Assembly (NCBI RefSeq): GCF_044324785.1 | Contig: NZ_CP172127.1 | Direction: 5' to 3' (one strand) | Length of the DNA: 64,000 nucleotides | DNA from: Escherichia coli | Lineage (GTDB): Bacteria; Pseudomonadota; Gammaproteobacteria; Enterobacterales; Enterobacteriaceae | Part shown: piece by piece, positions 22,931-29,903 of the stretch | Layout: every line of letters begins with the position of its first letter | Numbering within the stretch: position 1 is the first letter of the stretch | The notes under the pieces: model-generated | Databases searched by the model: none | Seen by the model: the letters and a program-made list of their open reading frames with translations, nothing else | Told to the model about the DNA's origin: nothing | Translations under genes and position numbers: made by a program

Positions 22931-23341
22931 CTACACAACGTCAATAAGGGCATATTCTTCAAAGATAACGTCCATTTCGGGTGAATAGCATCCTTCTGCC
23001 TGGAAAAAACGACGGTGTTCATTACGCCAATATTCAAGACTGAGGTCACCTTCACCTTCCTTACGGGCAAGCTCCGCGGTGACATCAGAAAAGCGCAGTA
23101 AATGCAGGCCAATCACTCTGATAACACAGACAGGCTCACCACGGCTATTTTCTACAATCTTATACTCACCAATCATCGGAAATGCGTTGTCTTCAATACA
23201 TCCCGCCAGCGAACCACAGGAAGCTGTTTTAACACCTGTCGCAATCAACGTTGCGAGGTGATCGGCCAACGCTGCTGAATCGCCAAAAGTACAAAAGGAA
23301 GCATGGGGATATTTTTGTGAGATTTTTTCTTTTATGGTCAT
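22931..23341 (-). CDS. ASCH/PUA-like domain protein
   Basis: ORF 22931..23374 (GTG) or from ATG 23341; GVKTAS motif typical of ASCH domains; no clear Shine-Dalgarno at either start. Confidence 0.55.
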   Translation of the reverse strand: MTIKEKISQKYPHASFCTFGDSAALADHLATLIATGVKTASCGSLAGCIEDNAFPMIGEYKIVENSRGEPVCVIRVIGLHLLRFSDVTAELARKEGEGDLSLEYWRNEHRRFFQAEGCYSPEMDVIFEEYALIDVV

Positions 23342-23637
23342 GAGAATATTTTCGCGATTACGGAAAAAAATCACATCTTAATTACTGTAGATAACCATCA
23401 GCAAGAGGATCATTGGTTTTCCTATGTTTAATCTTTTTTATCCGAAGCAGGTCACATTTATGGCTTGATAAATACCTTTGTTAAAACTCACTTTTGTGTA
23501 TTTCTCTCAAATAATCCCCTGGAAATTATGCCGGGAGATTATAAAGTTCAGGATCATTCATTAACAAACCATTCCCGCCCCACTCCCTGGGGCTTAAATC
23601 TCTTACGATTCACCGTTGCAGACATATCAAATGCGCA

Positions 23638-25020
23638 TCAACCTGCCACACTCCCCCACACCAGTTGCCCTTTATGGAACGTCGCCGTTCTCGGCGAGAT
23701 ACGCGCCACCGCCTCGGCGGAACAGGAGGCGTCCACCAGCACAAAGCTGGCGTCATCCTGCGCTTTAGGCCACACACGCTCGCCTTTTTCGTTGAGCGGC
23801 AATACATCGCCAGTGGCTAAAAACAGCGAACGGGAGAGGTTCTGTTCGTTAGGACGAATATAGAGCTGCGCGTAGAGATTGGCTTTTTCCAGCATGTCGC
23901 CCAGGCCGTAAGGCGACCAGTGGTCGATAACGCTGTCGGTGCCGGTCATCACTTTTACGCCTTTGTCGTGCAGTTGTTTAAGCGGCATATGTAGCGTGCC
24001 GATCGGCACCGTCGAGGCGATAGAAATTTGCTGCGCCGCCATCCGGTGCGCCAGTTCATCTACCTGTTGCTCATTGAGCGTTGCCAACGCAAAGGCGTGA
24101 CTGATGGTCAGCTTGCCCTTCAGTTGCGGCGTTTTCTCCACTGTTTCAACCATATAATTGATGGCCGCCACGCCTGCCGGAGTGGTTTCATGCAGGTGAA
24201 TATCGACGCCTTTGTCGTAGTCCAGCGCAATCTGGAACATGGTGTCGAGGGATTTTTCCATCGCGCCATCAACACTGGTTGGGTCCAGCCCGCCGACGTA
24301 ATGCGCCCCTGCCTGCATCGCTTCGCGCATTAAGGGTTCCGATTTCGACAGCAGCAAACCGTGCTGCGGGAAGGCGACGATTTCACACTCGAAGCCCGCC
24401 TGACGTCGCGCCAGCACCGCCTGCAAATTTTGCAGATTTTTCAGGCCGGAAACCGGTTCGATATTGCAGTGGCTGCGGGCAATGGTAGTGCCTTTCGACT
24501 GCAATAAATCGATCAGTTTTTCCGCCCTTTCCTGAGTGTACGGTTGCAACTCCGGCAGCATTTTCTGCTCGAGTTTGATCATGTCCTGGATGGTGGTGCC
24601 TGCCGGGCGATTGAGCGAGCGCCACGGCCCGCCGTAAAAGGTTTTGTCGAGATGAATATGCATGTCGCGGGTGGTGGGCAGCATCAGCTTACCGCCAGCG
24701 TCATAGTGCGGCAGCGTGGCGTCCGGATGCTGCTTGTTCTCGCGCAGGGCAACAATTTTGCCGTTCTGAATCTCTACGGTCTGGTGCGCCGTGCGGGTCT
24801 GTACCGCCACACCGTTTTCGTAGTCAAAACCGGTTTCCAGCAGCACGTTGTCGAGATAGTAGTGCGGGTCAGTGATTTTCATGGTGTTATTCGCGTCGCA
24901 GTTTAGGGTGCCAGAGACTGCCGCATGGGCGAGCGGCACAGAGGTACCAAACAGCGCGGCGGCGGTGACCATCTTACCGCTCTGGCTCAGAAACTCACGG
25001 CGGCTATTGTTTTTTTTCAT
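23638..25020 (-). CDS. yahJ: Tat-signal amidohydrolase (cytosine-deaminase-like)
   Basis: 460-aa ORF; N-terminal twin-arginine motif SRREFL followed by a hydrophobic stretch ending AHAAV; metal-dependent amidohydrolase fold; matches YahJ length. Confidence 0.88.
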   Translation of the reverse strand: MKKNNSRREFLSQSGKMVTAAALFGTSVPLAHAAVSGTLNCDANNTMKITDPHYYLDNVLLETGFDYENGVAVQTRTAHQTVEIQNGKIVALRENKQHPDATLPHYDAGGKLMLPTTRDMHIHLDKTFYGGPWRSLNRPAGTTIQDMIKLEQKMLPELQPYTQERAEKLIDLLQSKGTTIARSHCNIEPVSGLKNLQNLQAVLARRQAGFECEIVAFPQHGLLLSKSEPLMREAMQAGAHYVGGLDPTSVDGAMEKSLDTMFQIALDYDKGVDIHLHETTPAGVAAINYMVETVEKTPQLKGKLTISHAFALATLNEQQVDELAHRMAAQQISIASTVPIGTLHMPLKQLHDKGVKVMTGTDSVIDHWSPYGLGDMLEKANLYAQLYIRPNEQNLSRSLFLATGDVLPLNEKGERVWPKAQDDASFVLVDASCSAEAVARISPRTATFHKGQLVWGSVAG

Positions 25021-25029
25021 CTTACGTCC

Positions 25030-25980
25030 TTACGTTTTAATAATATGTGTGCCTGTTTCGCCGCGCAGCGCCGCAGGCAGGCATTCCGGCGTGGTGATAA
25101 TCACTTCTTTGCCGCCCTGCTCCAGGAACGTCAGGCTGGCGATGATTTTTGGCAACATGCTGCCAGGCGGGAAATGCCCTTCCTGCATATAGCGGGTCAT
25201 GGTGGCAATATCCACCCGATCCAGCGCCTGCTGCTGCGGCTTGCCAAAGTGAATACACACTTTTTCGACGCCGGTGGTGATCACCAGAATGTCGGCGTGA
25301 ATTTCACGGGCCAATAGCGCGGTAGAGAGATCTTTGTCGATAACCGCGTCCACGCTTTGGTAATCCCCCGCTTCACTGCACACCACCGGAATTCCACCGC
25401 CGCCCGCGCCAATCACCACAAAACCTTGTTGGATCAGCGCCTTAATGGCAGGTGCTTCGACAATACGTTTCGGTTCCGGCGAGGCGACCACGCGGCGATA
25501 GCCCCGTCCGGCATCTTCAACAAAACGCCAGTCAGGATTTGCCTTTTGTAATTCGTCACGCTGGCTGTCACTAAAGAATGCGCCGATGGGCTTGGTGGGA
25601 TGAGCAAATCCCGGATCGTTTTTATCCACTTCCACCTGAGTCACCACGGTGACGGCTTTTTTCTCGCCGTGACGCGCCAGCCGGTTGTTCAGCGCCTGTT
25701 GGATCAGATAGCCAATGCCGCCTTGCGTATCCGCCACACAGTTCGCCAGCGGCGTTAAGGGCAGCCCTTCGCGCTCGTGGGCAATCTCCGCGCGGCGTAA
25801 ATCCAAACCGACCTGCGGCCCGTTGCCGTGGGTCAGCACAATGTCGTAATCGGAAGCCAGCATTTCCAGCACCGTATCGGCCACGGCTTTCACCGCCTCC
25901 GCCTGATGCTCAATCGACTGGCTGGCGTTATCTTTGATAATGCTGTTGCCACCAATGGCAACGACCACAAGTTCTTTCAT
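25030..25980 (-). CDS. yahI: carbamate kinase-like protein
   Basis: 316-aa amino-acid-kinase-family ORF matching YahI; 9-nt gap to yahJ. Confidence 0.88.
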   Translation of the reverse strand: MKELVVVAIGGNSIIKDNASQSIEHQAEAVKAVADTVLEMLASDYDIVLTHGNGPQVGLDLRRAEIAHEREGLPLTPLANCVADTQGGIGYLIQQALNNRLARHGEKKAVTVVTQVEVDKNDPGFAHPTKPIGAFFSDSQRDELQKANPDWRFVEDAGRGYRRVVASPEPKRIVEAPAIKALIQQGFVVIGAGGGGIPVVCSEAGDYQSVDAVIDKDLSTALLAREIHADILVITTGVEKVCIHFGKPQQQALDRVDIATMTRYMQEGHFPPGSMLPKIIASLTFLEQGGKEVIITTPECLPAALRGETGTHIIKT

Positions 25981-26030
25981 GTTGTTATGTCCGCTACAGA
26001 GGGTGATGGGGTTATGACCAACGCCAGACT

Positions 26031-26202
26031 GCCTGATGCGCTACGCTTATCAGGCCTAGAATTCTCGTGCCATTCGTAGGCCGGATAAGGCGTTCACGCC
26101 GCATCCGGCAATGGTGACAAATGCCTGATGCGCTACGCTTATCAGGCCTACAGATTCTCGCGCCACTCGTAGGCCGGATAAGGCGTTCACGCCGCATCCG
26201 GC
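26031..26202. repeat. REP cluster (BIME): two tandem copies of an inverted REP pair
   Basis: gcctgatgcgctacgcttatcaggcctac and gtaggccggataaggcgttcacgccgcatccggca each occur twice (26031..26110 and 26123..26202). Confidence 0.88.
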
Positions 26203-26225
26203 AAAGACAACGCGCACTTTGCAGG

Positions 26226-27503
26226 TCAGACGCCGTAACGTTCGCACCAGCCAAGAATGGCTTTTTCGAAGCAGGCGAATGGTGGATGCACAATGCCCGC
26301 GCCAATCATGCCGATGCCCGCATCTTTATGAGCGATGGCGGTGTTGATCACTGGCAGAATGCCGCTACTGCCCACGCGGGTGATGTCGATTGCCGACGGC
26401 ACGCCCATAAAACCGAGCAGCGGAATGGTGACGTTGGGGTTTTCGCCGAGAGTGATTTCGCGCATCTGACGGGAGAAATCGATAGCTTCTTCCACCGTAC
26501 CGCCCACCAGCGCGACGATTGCAGGCGCGGTCGCCATAGCAAATCCGCCAATACCGTAGGTTTCGGTGATGGCACTGTCGCCAATATCCAATCCAGAATC
26601 TTCCGGCTTATAACCGGCAAACATCGGGCCGATCACCTGCTGCGCCGGACCGGAGAAGTAGTCGCTGCTGGCGACAAACTCAAACACTTCGCGCTGTTGC
26701 TCGACGGAATAGCCCGCCTGAATAATCCCCGGCGTCAGCGCCTGAATCAGCAACGTAGTCCCGGCGTTATTGCGGTTATGGCATTCATCGCCCATATGCA
26801 GCGCCTGCGCCAGCATCAAGCGCAGATCGATCTCGCCGATAATTTTCATTGCGTCACGCAGCATTGGCCCCTGCACATCGCGCATCCAGTTGAGGCGGTC
26901 AATCACGCTCTGGTCGTTAGCGCCCATACGCAAAATCTTCGCCATCTGCTCGCTCATGTTGGTATAAGCGATGTTGCCGTAGGTTTTGTTTTTTACGATG
27001 TGCATAAACATCGAGGCCGAGGTAACACCCGCCATCGATCCCACACAGTCGTGTTCGTGGCACGGCGAGAAGGTGATCTCCCCGGAGGCCGCCAGGTCAG
27101 CCGCCTCGTCGAGATCTTTCGCCAGTCCTTCGAACACCAGCGCTCCGGTGACCGCGCCTTTCATCGCGCCGCACATTTTTTCCCAGGTGATCGGCGGCCC
27201 GGCGTGAAGAATGGTTTTCGGCGTCATGCCCGGCACCACGTTAATCGCCTGATCAAAACCAATCAGCACCGGATGTGACTGAATAATGCGCTCCAGAGCC
27301 TGCTGATTAGCGGCGGCGATTTTGTCTGCCAGCGGCGAATCGGCAATGTTATCCAGCGCCTGCACCACCTGCATATTGCCCTGCCCCGGCGGCGTCCAGT
27401 CGAGTTGGGTCACTTCTACATGCTGCTTTTTCAGGTCATCGCTAAACATGGCGATGCCGACGTTAATAACGTTCAACGGTTGGCTAAACAGTGACTGGCT
27501 CAT
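26226..27503 (-). CDS. yahG: DUF1116 protein (YlbE-like)
   Basis: 425-aa ORF homologous in type to YlbE; start overlaps yahF stop by 1 nt. Confidence 0.85.
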   Translation of the reverse strand: MSQSLFSQPLNVINVGIAMFSDDLKKQHVEVTQLDWTPPGQGNMQVVQALDNIADSPLADKIAAANQQALERIIQSHPVLIGFDQAINVVPGMTPKTILHAGPPITWEKMCGAMKGAVTGALVFEGLAKDLDEAADLAASGEITFSPCHEHDCVGSMAGVTSASMFMHIVKNKTYGNIAYTNMSEQMAKILRMGANDQSVIDRLNWMRDVQGPMLRDAMKIIGEIDLRLMLAQALHMGDECHNRNNAGTTLLIQALTPGIIQAGYSVEQQREVFEFVASSDYFSGPAQQVIGPMFAGYKPEDSGLDIGDSAITETYGIGGFAMATAPAIVALVGGTVEEAIDFSRQMREITLGENPNVTIPLLGFMGVPSAIDITRVGSSGILPVINTAIAHKDAGIGMIGAGIVHPPFACFEKAILGWCERYGV

Positions 27504-29050
27504 CAGGCTTCCTCCCCTTTGCAGATAAATTCACGCGCCAGCAATCCGGTATTGGTGCTACTGCTGGCCAGAATCACTCCGCCATCAAGCAGCATCTGGC
27601 TTTGTTGTTCTAACGATGGCGTATCGAGATCGGTACCCAGAACATAGGCGAGAATGATCAACTCGCGCCCTTCGGCAGCGGCGATCGCTTTCGCCTCTTT
27701 GATCGCCTCGATGGTGGAACCGACCGGATCTTCATGCGATCCAAACCCGAGCACAAAATCCATCACGATCACCGCCACTTCTGGATCGCGCGCTTCTTCG
27801 ATCAACCGGCTGATACGGTTGGTGGGGTCAATCATTGGATGCGGCTTGCCGTTGGTGAAGTCGTCATCGCCAAAGTCGAGGAAGGTGTGTTTGATGCTGC
27901 GGTTGATATCTTGCAGGCGGAATTCAGGATCGGGCTGAATGTTGCTGTAGACATCGCCATGTTTTTCCATCACCGCGAACATGGTTTCGTCACACAGCGT
28001 ACCGCCGCAGAACAGGCCACGAATGTATTTCTGTTGCGGCTTCAGGCGAGCGCGCACGTCAGCAATCAATGGCTGGTTCAGGGTATGCAGATCGAGATGT
28101 TCCTGTTTCACGCCGGAGAGCATCACCGCTTTCAGCGCCGCTTCTTTGCTGCCGCGGGCAAACTTTAGCCCCTGCTCATCCACTGGCGTTTCGCCACGAC
28201 CGAGGAAGCAGACCACCACCGGCTTGCGGCAGGCGCGTGCGCGTTCCAGCACTTTGCGGGCCACCGCAGGCGCAGGCGGTTTGGAGATAAGCACAATAAT
28301 TTCAGTTTGCGGATCGTTTTCCAGCATCCCGATGGCGTCGAGCATCATCAGGCCGCCGATTTTCTCGCTCAGGTCGCGCCCGCCGGTGCCGATCAGTTGC
28401 GAAACGCCGCCGCCAAATTCATGGATACGGACGCTCAGCTCCTGGCTACCGGTGCCGGATGCGCCAACAATGCCGATGTTGCCGCGACGCACGGCGTTAC
28501 CAAAGCAGAGCGCCGCGCCGTTGATAATCGCCGTACCGCAGTCTGGCCCCATCATCAGCAGCCCTTTTTCGTGGGCCAACTGTTTGAGCGCCAGTTCATC
28601 TTCAACTGAGACGTTATCGGAAAACAGCATCACGTTAAGATCGTTTTGCAGCGCCTGACGCGCTTCGCGAGCGGCAAACAGACCGTTGACCGAAATCACC
28701 GCCAGGTTACTTTCCGGGATATGCTTTTTGGCGCTGGCAATAGTGGCATAGCGTGCTTCATGTGAACCAGTTTGAGCTTTGCTGTTGAACAGTTCTTCAA
28801 TCTCCACCAGCAACTGCTCGTTGTCCGCACCCGCTTTGCCGTTGATGACAATCATCAGGTCACCGTTTTTCGCCTGCTCCAGTTCCGGCGTCAGCAGTCC
28901 TAAATTCTTCAGCACGCCTTTGTTCATTTCGGTCGCCATCGCCACAAATGCCTGCTCGACGCCGTCGAGTTTATTTGCACGCGTGGAGATAGACATCAGC
29001 GAGACAGAATCAAAATAGGTATTCGGTTTAATGACTATTTTAACTGACAT
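27503..29050 (-). CDS. yahF: FdrA-like CoA-binding protein (succinyl-CoA-ligase-alpha-like fold)
   Basis: 515-aa ORF matching YahF length; overlaps yahE by 11 nt. Confidence 0.88.
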   Translation of the reverse strand: MSVKIVIKPNTYFDSVSLMSISTRANKLDGVEQAFVAMATEMNKGVLKNLGLLTPELEQAKNGDLMIVINGKAGADNEQLLVEIEELFNSKAQTGSHEARYATIASAKKHIPESNLAVISVNGLFAAREARQALQNDLNVMLFSDNVSVEDELALKQLAHEKGLLMMGPDCGTAIINGAALCFGNAVRRGNIGIVGASGTGSQELSVRIHEFGGGVSQLIGTGGRDLSEKIGGLMMLDAIGMLENDPQTEIIVLISKPPAPAVARKVLERARACRKPVVVCFLGRGETPVDEQGLKFARGSKEAALKAVMLSGVKQEHLDLHTLNQPLIADVRARLKPQQKYIRGLFCGGTLCDETMFAVMEKHGDVYSNIQPDPEFRLQDINRSIKHTFLDFGDDDFTNGKPHPMIDPTNRISRLIEEARDPEVAVIVMDFVLGFGSHEDPVGSTIEAIKEAKAIAAAEGRELIILAYVLGTDLDTPSLEQQSQMLLDGGVILASSSTNTGLLAREFICKGEEA

Positions 29051-29903
29051 AATTCCCTCCGTAGGTTTGGCTCAGCGCACAACCATCGGCCATGCCATAC
29101 AGCATGTCGCAGCCGGAACTGGAGCCAATATGTTTAATTTTTTCTATTGCCTGAGTTGCGTTCCCAGGGATGTCATAAATAATGTTATGAATAAAACGAT
29201 GAATATTTTCCCGGCAGCGTTGTTGTAATGCGGCTTCCAGCGTTATGGCACTTAATAACGTGGTATTATTTCTGCCGCGTTGCAGACCGAGATAAAATTC
29301 CTCTTTGTATTTTTCCGCCGGATGTCCGGAAATAAATAAAATAAGCGCCAGACCTGTTAAATAATCGTCAGCTGATGGCGTAAGGCCAATCCCTAAGCCC
29401 ATCATACTGGCGACTGCTGAGGCGATATTTTGTTTATCGTTTACGGCCTGAATAACTGCCCGTCGTTTAATATGTAATTCTTTATTTAACGCCTGATAAA
29501 ACGGATTATCGCCGCAATAATTAAACAGGGTTTCATTTTCCCCCAGGTGCTGATGAATAATGTCATGCCACTGTTGCCAGGCGATAAGGTGAAAATTCAC
29601 AGCGGTCATTTGCAAGGTTGGGGACAGCCAACGCCGACAACGACTCATCTCTATATGAAGATGTTGACCAACCGTAATGCCTTGATCGTCAAACTGAACC
29701 TTATCACCATGCCGGAACAGACCATCAAAGTGAGTGAGTGCCAACCGACAACTGTTTGGCGCATTGTCATACTCTTCACAAAGCAGCGTCAGCAACTGCT
29801 GGCGGGCCGGAAGTGCGATATTTACCGCTCTGGCAAAGACCTGTTCAACCTGTCCTTGCCCCCGCTGTGCCAGAAAATCCGCATCCGCAGTTAGCGCCCA
29901 CAC
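29040..29903 (-). CDS. yahE: DUF2877 protein (YlbF-like)
   Basis: 287-aa ORF matching YahE length and position. Confidence 0.85.
   Translation of the reverse strand: MWALTADADFLAQRGQGQVEQVFARAVNIALPARQQLLTLLCEEYDNAPNSCRLALTHFDGLFRHGDKVQFDDQGITVGQHLHIEMSRCRRWLSPTLQMTAVNFHLIAWQQWHDIIHQHLGENETLFNYCGDNPFYQALNKELHIKRRAVIQAVNDKQNIASAVASMMGLGIGLTPSADDYLTGLALILFISGHPAEKYKEEFYLGLQRGRNNTTLLSAITLEAALQQRCRENIHRFIHNIIYDIPGNATQAIEKIKHIGSSSGCDMLYGMADGCALSQTYGGNYVS

What the first reader, a model, noticed from the sequence alone, without database searches (positions are those of the whole stretch)
26031..26202. Tandem REP cluster immediately 3' of yahG that generates phantom ORFs
Two near-identical copies of an inverted REP pair lie 24 bp past the yahG stop. 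ORF-track entries 26012..26305 and 26056..26247 are translations of this repeat and should not be annotated. REP clusters bind gyrase and IHF and stabilise upstream mRNA, so this probably delimits the yahEFG transcript from yahI-yahJ.
Basis: partly seen in the sequence, partly recalled or inferred. Interest (0 to 1): 0.2.

Follow-up and report, generated by a model that had tools for sequence, protein, structure and literature searches.

The report
Known REP repeat cluster between yahG and yahI
This is an ordinary, already catalogued E. coli intergenic repeat (K-12's "REP23", the source of the phantom gene yahH), here present as two copies. It is best read as non-coding hairpin DNA/RNA inside an operon, not as a gene and not as a proven transcript boundary.

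Summary
Window 26030-26204 holds two tandem units (92 and 93 nt, 95% alike). Each unit is a Z-type REP, a linker and an inverted Y-type REP. The cluster starts 23 nt after the yahG stop codon and ends 49 nt before the yahI start codon.

It is K-12's REP23, where four units carry the discredited ORF yahH. The window's 63-aa ORF is the two-unit version of YahH. RefSeq still annotates it in the matching strain N3.

The evidence favours hairpins over a peptide:
- 98.8% of stem positions pair across 16 distinct units.
- Two stem pairs changed compensatorily, and that change alters the peptide.
- Variable sites show no third-codon-position excess.
- A 1-nt linker indel breaks the frame.
- Unit number ranges from 0 to 5 across E. 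coli.

The long ORFs exist because the 93-nt period equals 31 codons and two frames have no stop codons.

- The Z hairpin is the 29-nt Z1 form with no L linker, so this is an "atypical BIME".
- The IHF claim fails, and gyrase binding is untested at this site.
- No terminator or yahI promoter is detectable, so an intra-operon attenuator and stabiliser is likelier than a transcript boundary.

This is already known and of low interest.

The parts
26030..26059 (.). Z1-type REP, unit 1 (stem 26031-26055; foot CTAG instead of CTAC)
   Evidence: The 29-nt form equals z1 by the lengths given in PMC8266576.
26060..26075 (.). Foot-to-foot linker, unit 1. It is 16 nt, 1 nt shorter than in unit 2, and this indel ends the YahH reading frame.
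26076..26110 (.). Y-type REP, unit 1 (GTAG foot plus stem 26080-26109). It keeps T11, the A12A13/G26C27 bulge and G32.
26111..26121. Short linker between Y and the next Z1 (ATGGTGACAAA), homologous to the 'l' linker of REP325
26122..26151 (.). Z1-type REP, unit 2 (stem 26123-26147, CTAC foot)
26152..26168 (.). Foot-to-foot linker, unit 2 (17 nt)
26169..26203 (.). Y-type REP, unit 2 (GTAG foot plus stem 26173-26202). It is the first hairpin met by the yahG transcript.
26203..26225 (-). 23-nt spacer between the yahG stop codon and the first REP stem. This is the N3-type junction; the K-12-type junction is 13 nt.
26226..27503 (-). yahG (AllG/DUF1116 family), the upstream gene. In this window it carries a private in-frame 141-bp deletion.
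25030..25980 (-). yahI (carbamate kinase family), the downstream gene. Its ATG lies 49 nt after the last REP.
26056..26247 (-). 63-aa ORF, the two-unit version of YahH (same frame as K-12 b0322). Strain N3 annotates it as hypothetical protein WP_157916458.1. Judged to be a by-product of the repeat.
26012..26305 (-). 97-aa ORF in the second stop-free frame of the repeat (…CRMRRERLIRPT…). Judged to be a by-product of the repeat.

Best explanation
The feature is a non-coding 'atypical' BIME. It consists of two tandem [Y REP - short linker - Z1 REP - linker] units and is the two-unit allele of K-12's REP23 locus. It sits in the 245-nt gap between the co-oriented genes yahG and yahI.

Shown:
- It is one of the dispersed E. 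coli REP/BIME elements.
- It is old at this exact site.
- Its unit number varies from 0 to 5 among strains.
- Its sequence variation preserves the hairpins, not a peptide.
- The long ORFs arise mechanically. The 93-nt period is 31 codons, and two of the three sense frames contain no stop codon.

Inferred, by analogy with REP325 and older REP work:
- The cluster is transcribed as part of a yahDEFG-IJ message.
- Its four stable hairpins block 3'-to-5' exonucleases, which protects the upstream yahEFG part.
- It causes partial, probably Rho-dependent, attenuation that lowers read-through into yahI-yahJ.
- It therefore sets the upstream-to-downstream expression ratio inside one operon rather than separating two independent transcripts.
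- Unit number and stop-to-REP distance are the variables that differ between strains.
For: Identity:
- searches give the anatomy.
- searches show 0 matches expected by chance.
- one search shows REP-containing matches at a median of 33 places per E. coli genome.
- searches show K-12 has four units at the same site, named REP23 and yahH.
- one search gives the lengths (y 35 nt, z1 29 nt, z2 37 nt), so the Z form here is z1.
- searches give the definitions under which a tandem Y/Z1 array is 'atypical'.
- one search shows the unit is 81% identical to a REP325 unit, differing by a 7-nt deletion in the upper Z stem.
- one search shows the Rfam naRNA4 alignment with that same deletion.

Non-coding:
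- 98.8% of 336 stem cells pair, and two pairs changed G-C to A-U on both sides. No shuffle reaches the paired fraction or the covariation score, and slid controls pair at 25-42%.
- variable columns are 6 of 42 paired (4 of them compensatory) against 9 of 25 in the linker. Variable sites fall 7:5:5 across codon positions. The compensatory change alters the peptide (GVNAL to DMNVL). A 1-nt indel breaks the frame in 5 of 16 distinct units.
- no curated family passes threshold.
- the 93-nt period leaves two stop-free frames, whereas REP325's 100-nt period has stops in all three.

Structure:
- the sense-strand RNA folds at -105.5 kcal/mol, z = -4.55.
- Y hairpins -20.5 and Z1 hairpins -11.5 kcal/mol.

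Operon context:
- no terminator-like or promoter-like site on the - strand in the gap.
- a REP-free allele with a 94-nt gap occurs in 378 genomes.
- the flanking genes are AllF/AllG-family proteins plus a carbamate kinase.
- Neuhaus et al. read the locus as one operon, yahDEFGIJ.

Mechanism by analogy:
- REP325, a tandem array between co-oriented operon genes, lowers the downstream gene about 8-10-fold and stabilises the upstream mRNA, with partial Rho dependence.
- REP-containing tandem gene pairs have upstream-biased expression genome-wide.

Variation:
- document 0, 1, 2, 3, 4 and 5 units.
- Assemblies labelled E. albertii and a cryptic Escherichia clade share the same insertion point.
Against: - No transcript, RNA 3'-end, half-life or Rho data for this locus were found, so the whole RNA-level mechanism is transferred from another locus.
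- The same preprint stresses that REP effects depend on context, and that REPs do not lengthen mRNA half-lives in general.
- This cluster is inverted relative to transcription compared with REP325. Rfam scores 78 bits on the + strand and only 53.9 bits on the transcribed - strand.
- It has 4 hairpins rather than 12, and Z1 rather than Z2.
- The simple promoter scan could miss a weak or non-sigma-70 promoter for yahI.
- The compensatory change probably reflects a single event carried by three distinct units, so the covariation evidence is thin.
Confidence: 0.7

Rival explanations
1. Transcript boundary. The REP cluster ends the yahEFG transcript, and yahI-yahJ form a separate unit with their own promoter.
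For: REPs often lie at the 3' ends of transcription units, and some act as partial Rho-dependent terminators. REP325 lowers downstream expression about 10-fold. A 245-nt gap is long for an intra-operon junction.
Against: No hairpin plus U-tract and no sigma-70-like promoter lie on the - strand in or near the gap. Only 49 nt separate the last REP from the yahI ATG. The gap is 94 nt in REP-free strains. The flanking genes look like one pathway. The only published reading of the locus is a single operon, yahDEFGIJ.
Confidence: 0.2
2. Real small protein. The YahH-type ORF (63 aa here) is translated and functional, as proposed for EHEC.
For: Neuhaus et al. 2016 report ribosome footprints on the five-unit yahH ORF of EDL933 (RPKM 56, coverage 0.61). 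RefSeq annotates 'protein YahH' or 'hypothetical protein' at this site in many genomes, including this exact ORF in strain N3. The ORF is on the same strand as the operon.
Against: - No mass-spectrometry signal is listed for it in that paper.
- Footprints on a repeated, strongly structured RNA are ambiguous.
- The length ranges from absent to about 150 aa with unit number, and the start codon and start position differ between strains.
- 7% of genomes lack the sequence altogether.
- 1-nt indels break the frame, codon positions vary 7:5:5, and compensatory stem changes alter three residues.
- No Pfam or NCBIfam family passes threshold.
- No Shine-Dalgarno-like sequence is evident before the GTG start, which lies inside yahG.
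Confidence: 0.04
3. Mainly a DNA-level element. It could be a gyrase binding and cleavage site or supercoil insulator, or a source of HU-binding 'naRNA' that organises the nucleoid.
For: Gyrase cleavage sites are enriched in BIME-2 and fall mostly in Y-type REPs, which this cluster contains. One unit passes Rfam's gathering score for naRNA4 (78 against 59.5). Qian et al. 2015 linked such RNAs to HU and nucleoid condensation.
Against: Most listed BIME-2 intervals had zero cleavage sites. No interval near 340 kb appears in either the BIME-1 or the BIME-2 list of the Topo-seq study. This cluster is Y/Z1, not Y/Z2. The Rfam match passes only on the strand antisense to the operon. The 2026 follow-up found that REP325 and naRNA4 do not measurably compact the nucleoid and that REP-REP contacts are not HU-dependent.
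Confidence: 0.15
4. Selfish or neutral passenger. The array persists and changes length through the REP-associated transposase (RayT/TnpA-REP) and unequal recombination, with no host function at this site.
For: Unit number varies from 0 to 5, and strains without it exist. Both Y REPs keep the positions contacted by TnpA-REP: the GTAG foot, T11, the A12A13/G26C27 bulge and G32. [quoted passage not shown]
Against: This rival is not exclusive of a regulatory side-effect. The element is retained at the same insertion point in assemblies labelled E. albertii and in a cryptic Escherichia clade. The REP-free allele has its own 11-bp hairpin at the same place, which hints that some 3' structure is wanted there.
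Confidence: 0.3

Closest known systems
REP23 / yahH locus of E. coli K-12 MG1655 (339,744-340,164)
   Same: Same genomic site, same left junction, and the same Y and Z1 REPs and linkers. The window's 63-aa ORF is in the YahH frame and aligns with K-12 YahH over 47 residues with only two differences.
   Different: The window has two units where K-12 has four. The yahG-side junction is a different type: 23 nt from stop to REP here against 13 nt in K-12.
REP325 (yjdM-yjdN, K-12), the experimental model for tandem BIMEs and the source of Rfam naRNA4 (RF02564)
   Same: A tandem array of Y-linker-Z-linker units between two co-oriented genes. The unit is 81% identical, including both linkers. One unit scores 78 bits against the Rfam model.
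   Different: REP325 uses the 37-nt Z2 form and has a 100-nt period, 6 units and stops in all frames. The window cluster uses the 29-nt Z1 form and has a 93-nt period, 2 units and two open frames. It is also inverted relative to transcription.
BIME-1 (RIP/RIB elements)
   Same: Same pair of REP types, Y plus Z1. For example, K-12 138,700-138,797 carries the same short Z form.
   Different: BIME-1 is a single copy with a roughly 34-nt L linker that carries the IHF site. The window cluster has tandem copies, short linkers and no IHF core.
BIME-2 (for example araD-araA and sucB-sucC)
   Same: Tandem, copy-number-variable arrays with short linkers. The Y REPs are the preferred gyrase cleavage targets.
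   Different: BIME-2 is defined by Z2. The window cluster carries Z1.

Membership tests
E. coli REP / palindromic unit, Y type | About 35 nt: a GTAG foot followed by an imperfect palindrome with the conserved A12A13/G26C27 mismatch and conserved T11 and G32 | tested here: met
   Both Y copies read GTAGGCCGGATAAGGCGTTCACGCCGCATCCGGCA (35 nt) with all of these positions. The definition is in PMC8266576.
E. coli REP / palindromic unit, Z1 type | The 29-nt form (Z2 is 37 nt) | tested here: met
   GTAGGCCTGATAAGCGTAGCGCATCAGGC is 29 nt. The long form is seen in REP325 and in araD-araA. Rfam shows the 7-nt deletion relative to the Z2-based model.
REP family in general | Extragenic location and high copy number in the genome | tested here: met
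   The cluster lies wholly between yahG and yahI. A query containing it matched a median of 33 places per E. coli genome.
BIME-1 | One Y and one Z1, as a single copy | tested here: not met
   The composition is right, but there are two tandem pairs here and up to five in other strains.
BIME-1 | Long L linker carrying an IHF binding site | tested here: not met
   The linkers are 11 and 16-17 nt. No WATCAANNNNTTR match occurs in the gap, even with one mismatch. A true L linker is shown.
BIME-2 | Composed of Y and Z2 REPs | tested here: not met
   The Z REPs are the 29-nt Z1 form.
BIME-2 | Multiple tandem copies with short linkers, and copy number variable between strains | tested here: met
   Two units here and 0-5 across strains. 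The linkers are homologous to those of REP325.
Atypical BIME | Any other association of Y, Z1, Z2 and linkers, occurring in multiple copies | tested here: met
   Tandem Y/Z1 with BIME-2-type linkers. The locus is absent from both the BIME-1 and BIME-2 tables of Sutormin et al., which is consistent but not proof.
Rfam RF02564 naRNA4 | Score at or above the gathering threshold (59.5 bits) | tested here: inconclusive
   78 bits at 26079-26148 on the + strand, but 53.9 bits on the - strand, which is the strand transcribed with the yah genes. The model in effect recognises a Y-linker-Z unit.
Rfam RF02564 naRNA4 | A discrete, HU-associated RNA product | not testable with these tools
   No expression data. 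The nucleoid role of naRNA4 is itself now disputed.
Intrinsic (Rho-independent) terminator | GC-rich hairpin followed directly by a U-tract | tested here: not met
   No terminator-like site on the - strand in the gap. The sequences after each hairpin lack a T run.
Protein-coding gene (YahH) | Reading frame, start codon and length conserved among strains, and substitutions biased to third codon positions | tested here: not met
   Frame-breaking indels, a 7:5:5 codon-position spread, variable starts and lengths, and 378 genomes without the sequence.
Protein-coding gene (YahH) | Membership of a curated protein family, or homologues outside the repeat context | tested here: not met
   Nothing passes threshold in Pfam or NCBIfam. 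All but one named hit are Escherichia. Those checked lie in this same gap (P0019, P0058, P0024, P0007) or at another BIME (P0097).
Protein-coding gene (YahH) | Direct evidence of a translated product | not testable with these tools
   There is a literature claim from ribosome footprints in EHEC, with no mass-spectrometry entry for it.

The most novel reading that the evidence does not exclude
The natural alleles of this BIME act as a heritable expression dial for the yah pathway. The alleles differ in unit number (0 to 5) and in junction type, which places the first hairpin 13 nt or 23 nt after the yahG stop codon. Unit number would set how much transcription reaches yahI-yahJ and how long yahEFG mRNA survives. 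[quoted passage not shown] The 23-nt junction of this window would not.
Probability: 0.2. Interest if true: 0.35.

Novelty: already known. Interest (0 to 1): 0.12.

Why it matters
The practical value is for annotation. The 63-aa ORF and the 'protein YahH' entries are translations of a repeat. They are still propagated in RefSeq, and some copies are even misnamed as EntD. The 93-nt (31-codon) period explains why this particular BIME looks like a gene. The case also shows that generic statements about REPs, such as binding IHF or gyrase, depend on subtype. This site is a Y/Z1 'atypical' BIME, for which neither has been shown. The 0-5 unit series at one operon junction would make a convenient natural test of the terminator-plus-stabiliser model recently proposed for REP325. 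That would extend known biology rather than add a new kind of element.

Tried and rejected
1. I first labelled the short Z hairpin 'Z2' and the cluster 'BIME-2' from memory. The Rfam alignment, REP325, the listed BIME-1 and BIME-2 loci and the explicit lengths in PMC8266576 showed that it is Z1, so I dropped the BIME-2 label. The sources are inconsistent here. Messing et al. label the MG1655 REPtron hairpins z1, yet their sequence is the 37-nt form.

2. I assumed that hits named '4'-phosphopantetheinyl transferase EntD' came from a BIME near entD. Context look-ups placed P0019, P0058, P0024 and P0007 in this same yahG-yahI gap. Of the hits checked, only the weaker P0097 came from another locus. 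The top homologues are therefore positional equivalents, not independent occurrences.

3. I searched the Topo-seq supplement of Sutormin et al. for gyrase cleavage at this site. There is no yahG/H/I entry and no BIME interval between 258 kb and 374 kb, so the result is uninformative.

4. Literature searches for transcript ends or operon mapping of yahG and yahI found only the operon suggestion in Neuhaus et al..

5. Searches for an IHF core motif in the gap, strict and with one mismatch, found nothing.

6. I tested whether the 57-nt sequence of the REP-free allele is another repeat family. It occurs once per genome, and its fold is not significantly more stable than shuffles (z = -1.4).

7. 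The original paper on REP distance from the stop codon is not in the held library. The rule is cited second-hand from PMC12306157.

Full report
**What is there.** Window 26030-26204 contains two head-to-tail units, the first 92 nt and the second on a 93-nt period. Tandem Repeats Finder reports 1.9 copies, 95% matches and score 320. Each unit is a short REP hairpin (GCCTGATGCGCTACGCTTATCAGGC with a CTAC foot), a 16-17-nt linker, and an inverted longer REP (GTAG foot plus GCCGGATAAGGCGTTCACGCCGCATCCGGC). An 11-nt linker joins the two units. Each REP type matches only at these four positions in the 64-kb window, with zero expected in shuffles. A looser scan and a whole-window Rfam pass found no other complete REP. 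On either strand the region folds far better than shuffled sequence. The transcribed strand gives -105.5 kcal/mol at z = -4.55, and the other strand gives z = -4.02.

**Context.** All neighbouring genes are on the - strand: yahF 27503-29050, yahG 26226-27503, yahI 25030-25980 and yahJ 23638-25020. The region 25700-26520 is 100% identical to E. coli strain N3, whose annotation confirms the gene names. The cluster starts 23 nt after the yahG stop codon and ends 49 nt before the yahI ATG.

**It is a known locus.** K-12 MG1655 has four units of the same repeat in the same gap. There the ORF yahH (b0322, 106 aa) lies entirely within them. The literature calls the element REP23. It describes yahH as 'filled with REP23 sites', and as an ORF that was annotated and later rejected because of its repeat structure. 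The window's 63-aa ORF (26056-26247, -) is in the YahH frame, with one 93-nt unit encoding one 31-residue repeat. RefSeq annotates exactly this ORF in strain N3 as hypothetical protein WP_157916458.1. It also annotates 'protein YahH' in many other genomes.

**Which kind of BIME.** I first called the short hairpin Z2, which was wrong. The Rfam naRNA4 alignment showed a 7-nt deletion in the second hairpin relative to the model. REP325 and the araD-araA BIME-2 carry the long form. Corneloup et al. give the lengths explicitly: y 35 nt, z1 29 nt, z2 37 nt. The window's hairpin is 29 nt, so it is Z1. By the published definitions, BIME-1 is one Y plus one Z1 around the L linker that binds IHF. BIME-2 is a tandem array of Y plus Z2. 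All other associations are 'atypical' BIMEs, which also occur in multiple copies. This cluster is tandem Y/Z1 with short linkers, so it is an atypical BIME. Architecturally it is a REP325-type unit with Z1 in place of Z2. The two periods align at 81 of 100 columns, linkers included. Consistent with this, the locus appears in neither the BIME-1 nor the BIME-2 table of the gyrase Topo-seq study.

- IHF binding is a property of the BIME-1 L linker. No L linker is present, and no IHF core match occurs in the gap, even with one mismatch. The IHF statement does not apply.
- Gyrase cleavage is documented for BIME-2, mostly within Y REPs, and only at a subset of sites. Most listed intervals had no cleavage. 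Gyrase binding here is possible, because Y REPs are present, but it is untested.

- Neither ORF, nor K-12 YahH, reaches a curated threshold in Pfam or NCBIfam.
- Database searches returned 113 and 27 short proteins. All but one of the named hits are from Escherichia. None has a Pfam domain. Their lengths range from 34 to 162 aa.
- I expected many of these to come from other BIMEs. In fact four that I checked lie in this same gap, including one misnamed as a phosphopantetheinyl transferase. One weaker hit lies at an unrelated BIME next to a tRNA methyltransferase gene.
- The 'homologues' are therefore the same repeat at the same place, not independent evidence for a protein.

I then aligned 16 distinct units from eight alleles.
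- Of all stem positions, 98.8% pair, against 25-42% when the partner columns are slid.
- Two pairs in the Y upper stem changed G-C to A-U on both sides.
- Variation is concentrated in the linker: 9 of 25 columns, against 6 of 42 paired columns, four of which are the compensatory ones.
- Variable sites fall 7:5:5 over the codon positions of the YahH frame.
- The compensatory change rewrites GVNAL to DMNVL.
- A 1-nt linker indel ends the frame in 5 of the 16 distinct units.
- Start codons and lengths differ between K-12, O157, Nissle and this window.

This is the pattern of a constrained hairpin, not of a constrained peptide. The covariation probably reflects a single event, so it is supportive rather than strong.

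The long ORFs have a simple cause. The 93-nt period is 31 codons, and two of the three sense frames of a unit contain no stop. REP325's 100-nt period meets stops in every frame. One paper argues from ribosome footprints that the five-unit yahH of EHEC is translated, but it lists no mass-spectrometry signal for it. I treat translation as unlikely but not excluded.

**Variation between strains.** A flank-only query found the locus in 5,048 of 5,426 complete genomes. In 58 chromosomes sampled evenly down the ranking, the spans fall into discrete classes:

| Units | Chromosomes |
|---|---|
| 0 | 6 |
| 1 | 24 |
| 2 | 5 |
| 3 | 1 |
| 4 | 18 |
| 5 | 3 |
| odd span | 1 |

I verified each class by sequence. 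The REP-free allele has a 94-95-nt gap with an unrelated single-copy 57-nt segment that forms an 11-bp hairpin. It is present in 378 genomes. There are two junction types on the yahG side, which place the first REP 23 nt (this window) or 13 nt (K-12) after the stop codon. Assemblies labelled E. albertii (yahI 94-95% identical to the window) and a cryptic-clade Escherichia carry two units at the same insertion point. One unit in the cryptic-clade assembly has a longer, Z2-like hairpin. The element is therefore old at this site and keeps changing in unit number. [quoted passage not shown]

**How it most likely works.** No transcript data exist for this locus in the material I could search, so this step is inference.
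- The gap has no hairpin plus U-tract terminator and no sigma-70-like promoter on the gene strand.
- REP-free strains have only 94 nt between the genes.
- The flanking genes look like one pathway: AllF-like YahF, AllG-family YahG and the carbamate kinase YahI.
- The one published reading is a single operon, yahDEFGIJ.

The best experimental analogue is REP325, a tandem array between two co-oriented operon genes. It lowers the downstream gene about 8-10-fold through partly Rho-dependent attenuation and stabilises the upstream mRNA. REP-containing tandem gene pairs also show upstream-biased expression genome-wide, with large context dependence.

I therefore favour an intra-operon attenuator and 3' stabiliser over a boundary between two independent transcripts.

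Caveats: this cluster is inverted relative to transcription compared with REP325, and it has 4 hairpins rather than 12. [quoted passage not shown]

**Verdict.** The IHF claim is rejected. Gyrase binding is untested, and the transcript-boundary idea is weaker than an intra-operon role. The element is already known (REP23/yahH) and the overall interest is low.

Noticed in passing
window 26226-27503 (junction near 26653): yahG here is 425 aa instead of 472 aa. There is an in-frame 141-bp deletion between the short direct repeats CCGGACCGG and TCGGGCCGG, which removes 47 residues of the AllG domain. A 50-nt query across the junction was matched in full by none of 5,426 complete E. coli genomes.
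   Followed up: partly
window 22700-29700 compared with L001 (strain N3): The window is 100% identical to strain N3 up to about 26653, then only 98.1% identical beyond it. The source is therefore not N3, and a recombination breakpoint or strain difference coincides with the yahG deletion.
   Followed up: partly
window 26121-27278 (+) and 25828-26079 (+): Two more repeat-linked ORFs lie on the antisense strand. A 385-aa ORF starts at an ATG inside the second Z1 REP and runs antisense through yahG. An 83-aa ORF ends inside the first unit. Both look like shadow ORFs.
   Followed up: no
P0019, P0046, P0052, P0078 (hits); L009 2501-2734: Several database entries for the YahH-type repeat ORF are named '4'-phosphopantetheinyl transferase (EntD)'. 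P0019, the one checked, lies in the yahG-yahI gap, so that name is an annotation error that has been propagated.
   Followed up: partly
L005 and L008 (REP-free alleles), gap between yahI and yahG: About 7% of genomes (378 of 5,426) carry a unique 57-nt segment with an 11-bp hairpin (CCCTTCTCCCT…GGGGAGAGGGG on the sense strand) in place of the BIME. It occurs once per genome. Some of these alleles have flanks only 92-94% identical to the window.
   Followed up: partly
L016 gap (Escherichia sp. E2593), second unit: At the same locus one Z hairpin has the longer form GCCTGATGCGCTACGCTCGCGCGTCTTATCAGGC. It is intermediate between Z1 and Z2, which suggests the two types can interconvert in place.
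   Followed up: no
L022 963-1137 and 1636-1858 (K-12 rayT flanks): The BIMEs flanking the REP-associated transposase gene carry the 37-nt Z form. Messing et al. 2012 label them z1, while Sutormin et al. list them under BIME-2. The Z1/Z2 naming is used inconsistently in the literature.
   Followed up: partly
L007 911-1369 (E. coli Nissle 1917): In Nissle 1917 the yahG next to the three-unit BIME is annotated as an incomplete pseudogene that lacks its N-terminus. This is another case of yahG damage at this locus.
   Followed up: no
whole window 1-64000: The yahG-yahI cluster is the only complete REP/BIME in 64 kb. This is sparse compared with the genome average of about 355 annotated REP loci in 4.6 Mb.
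   Followed up: partly
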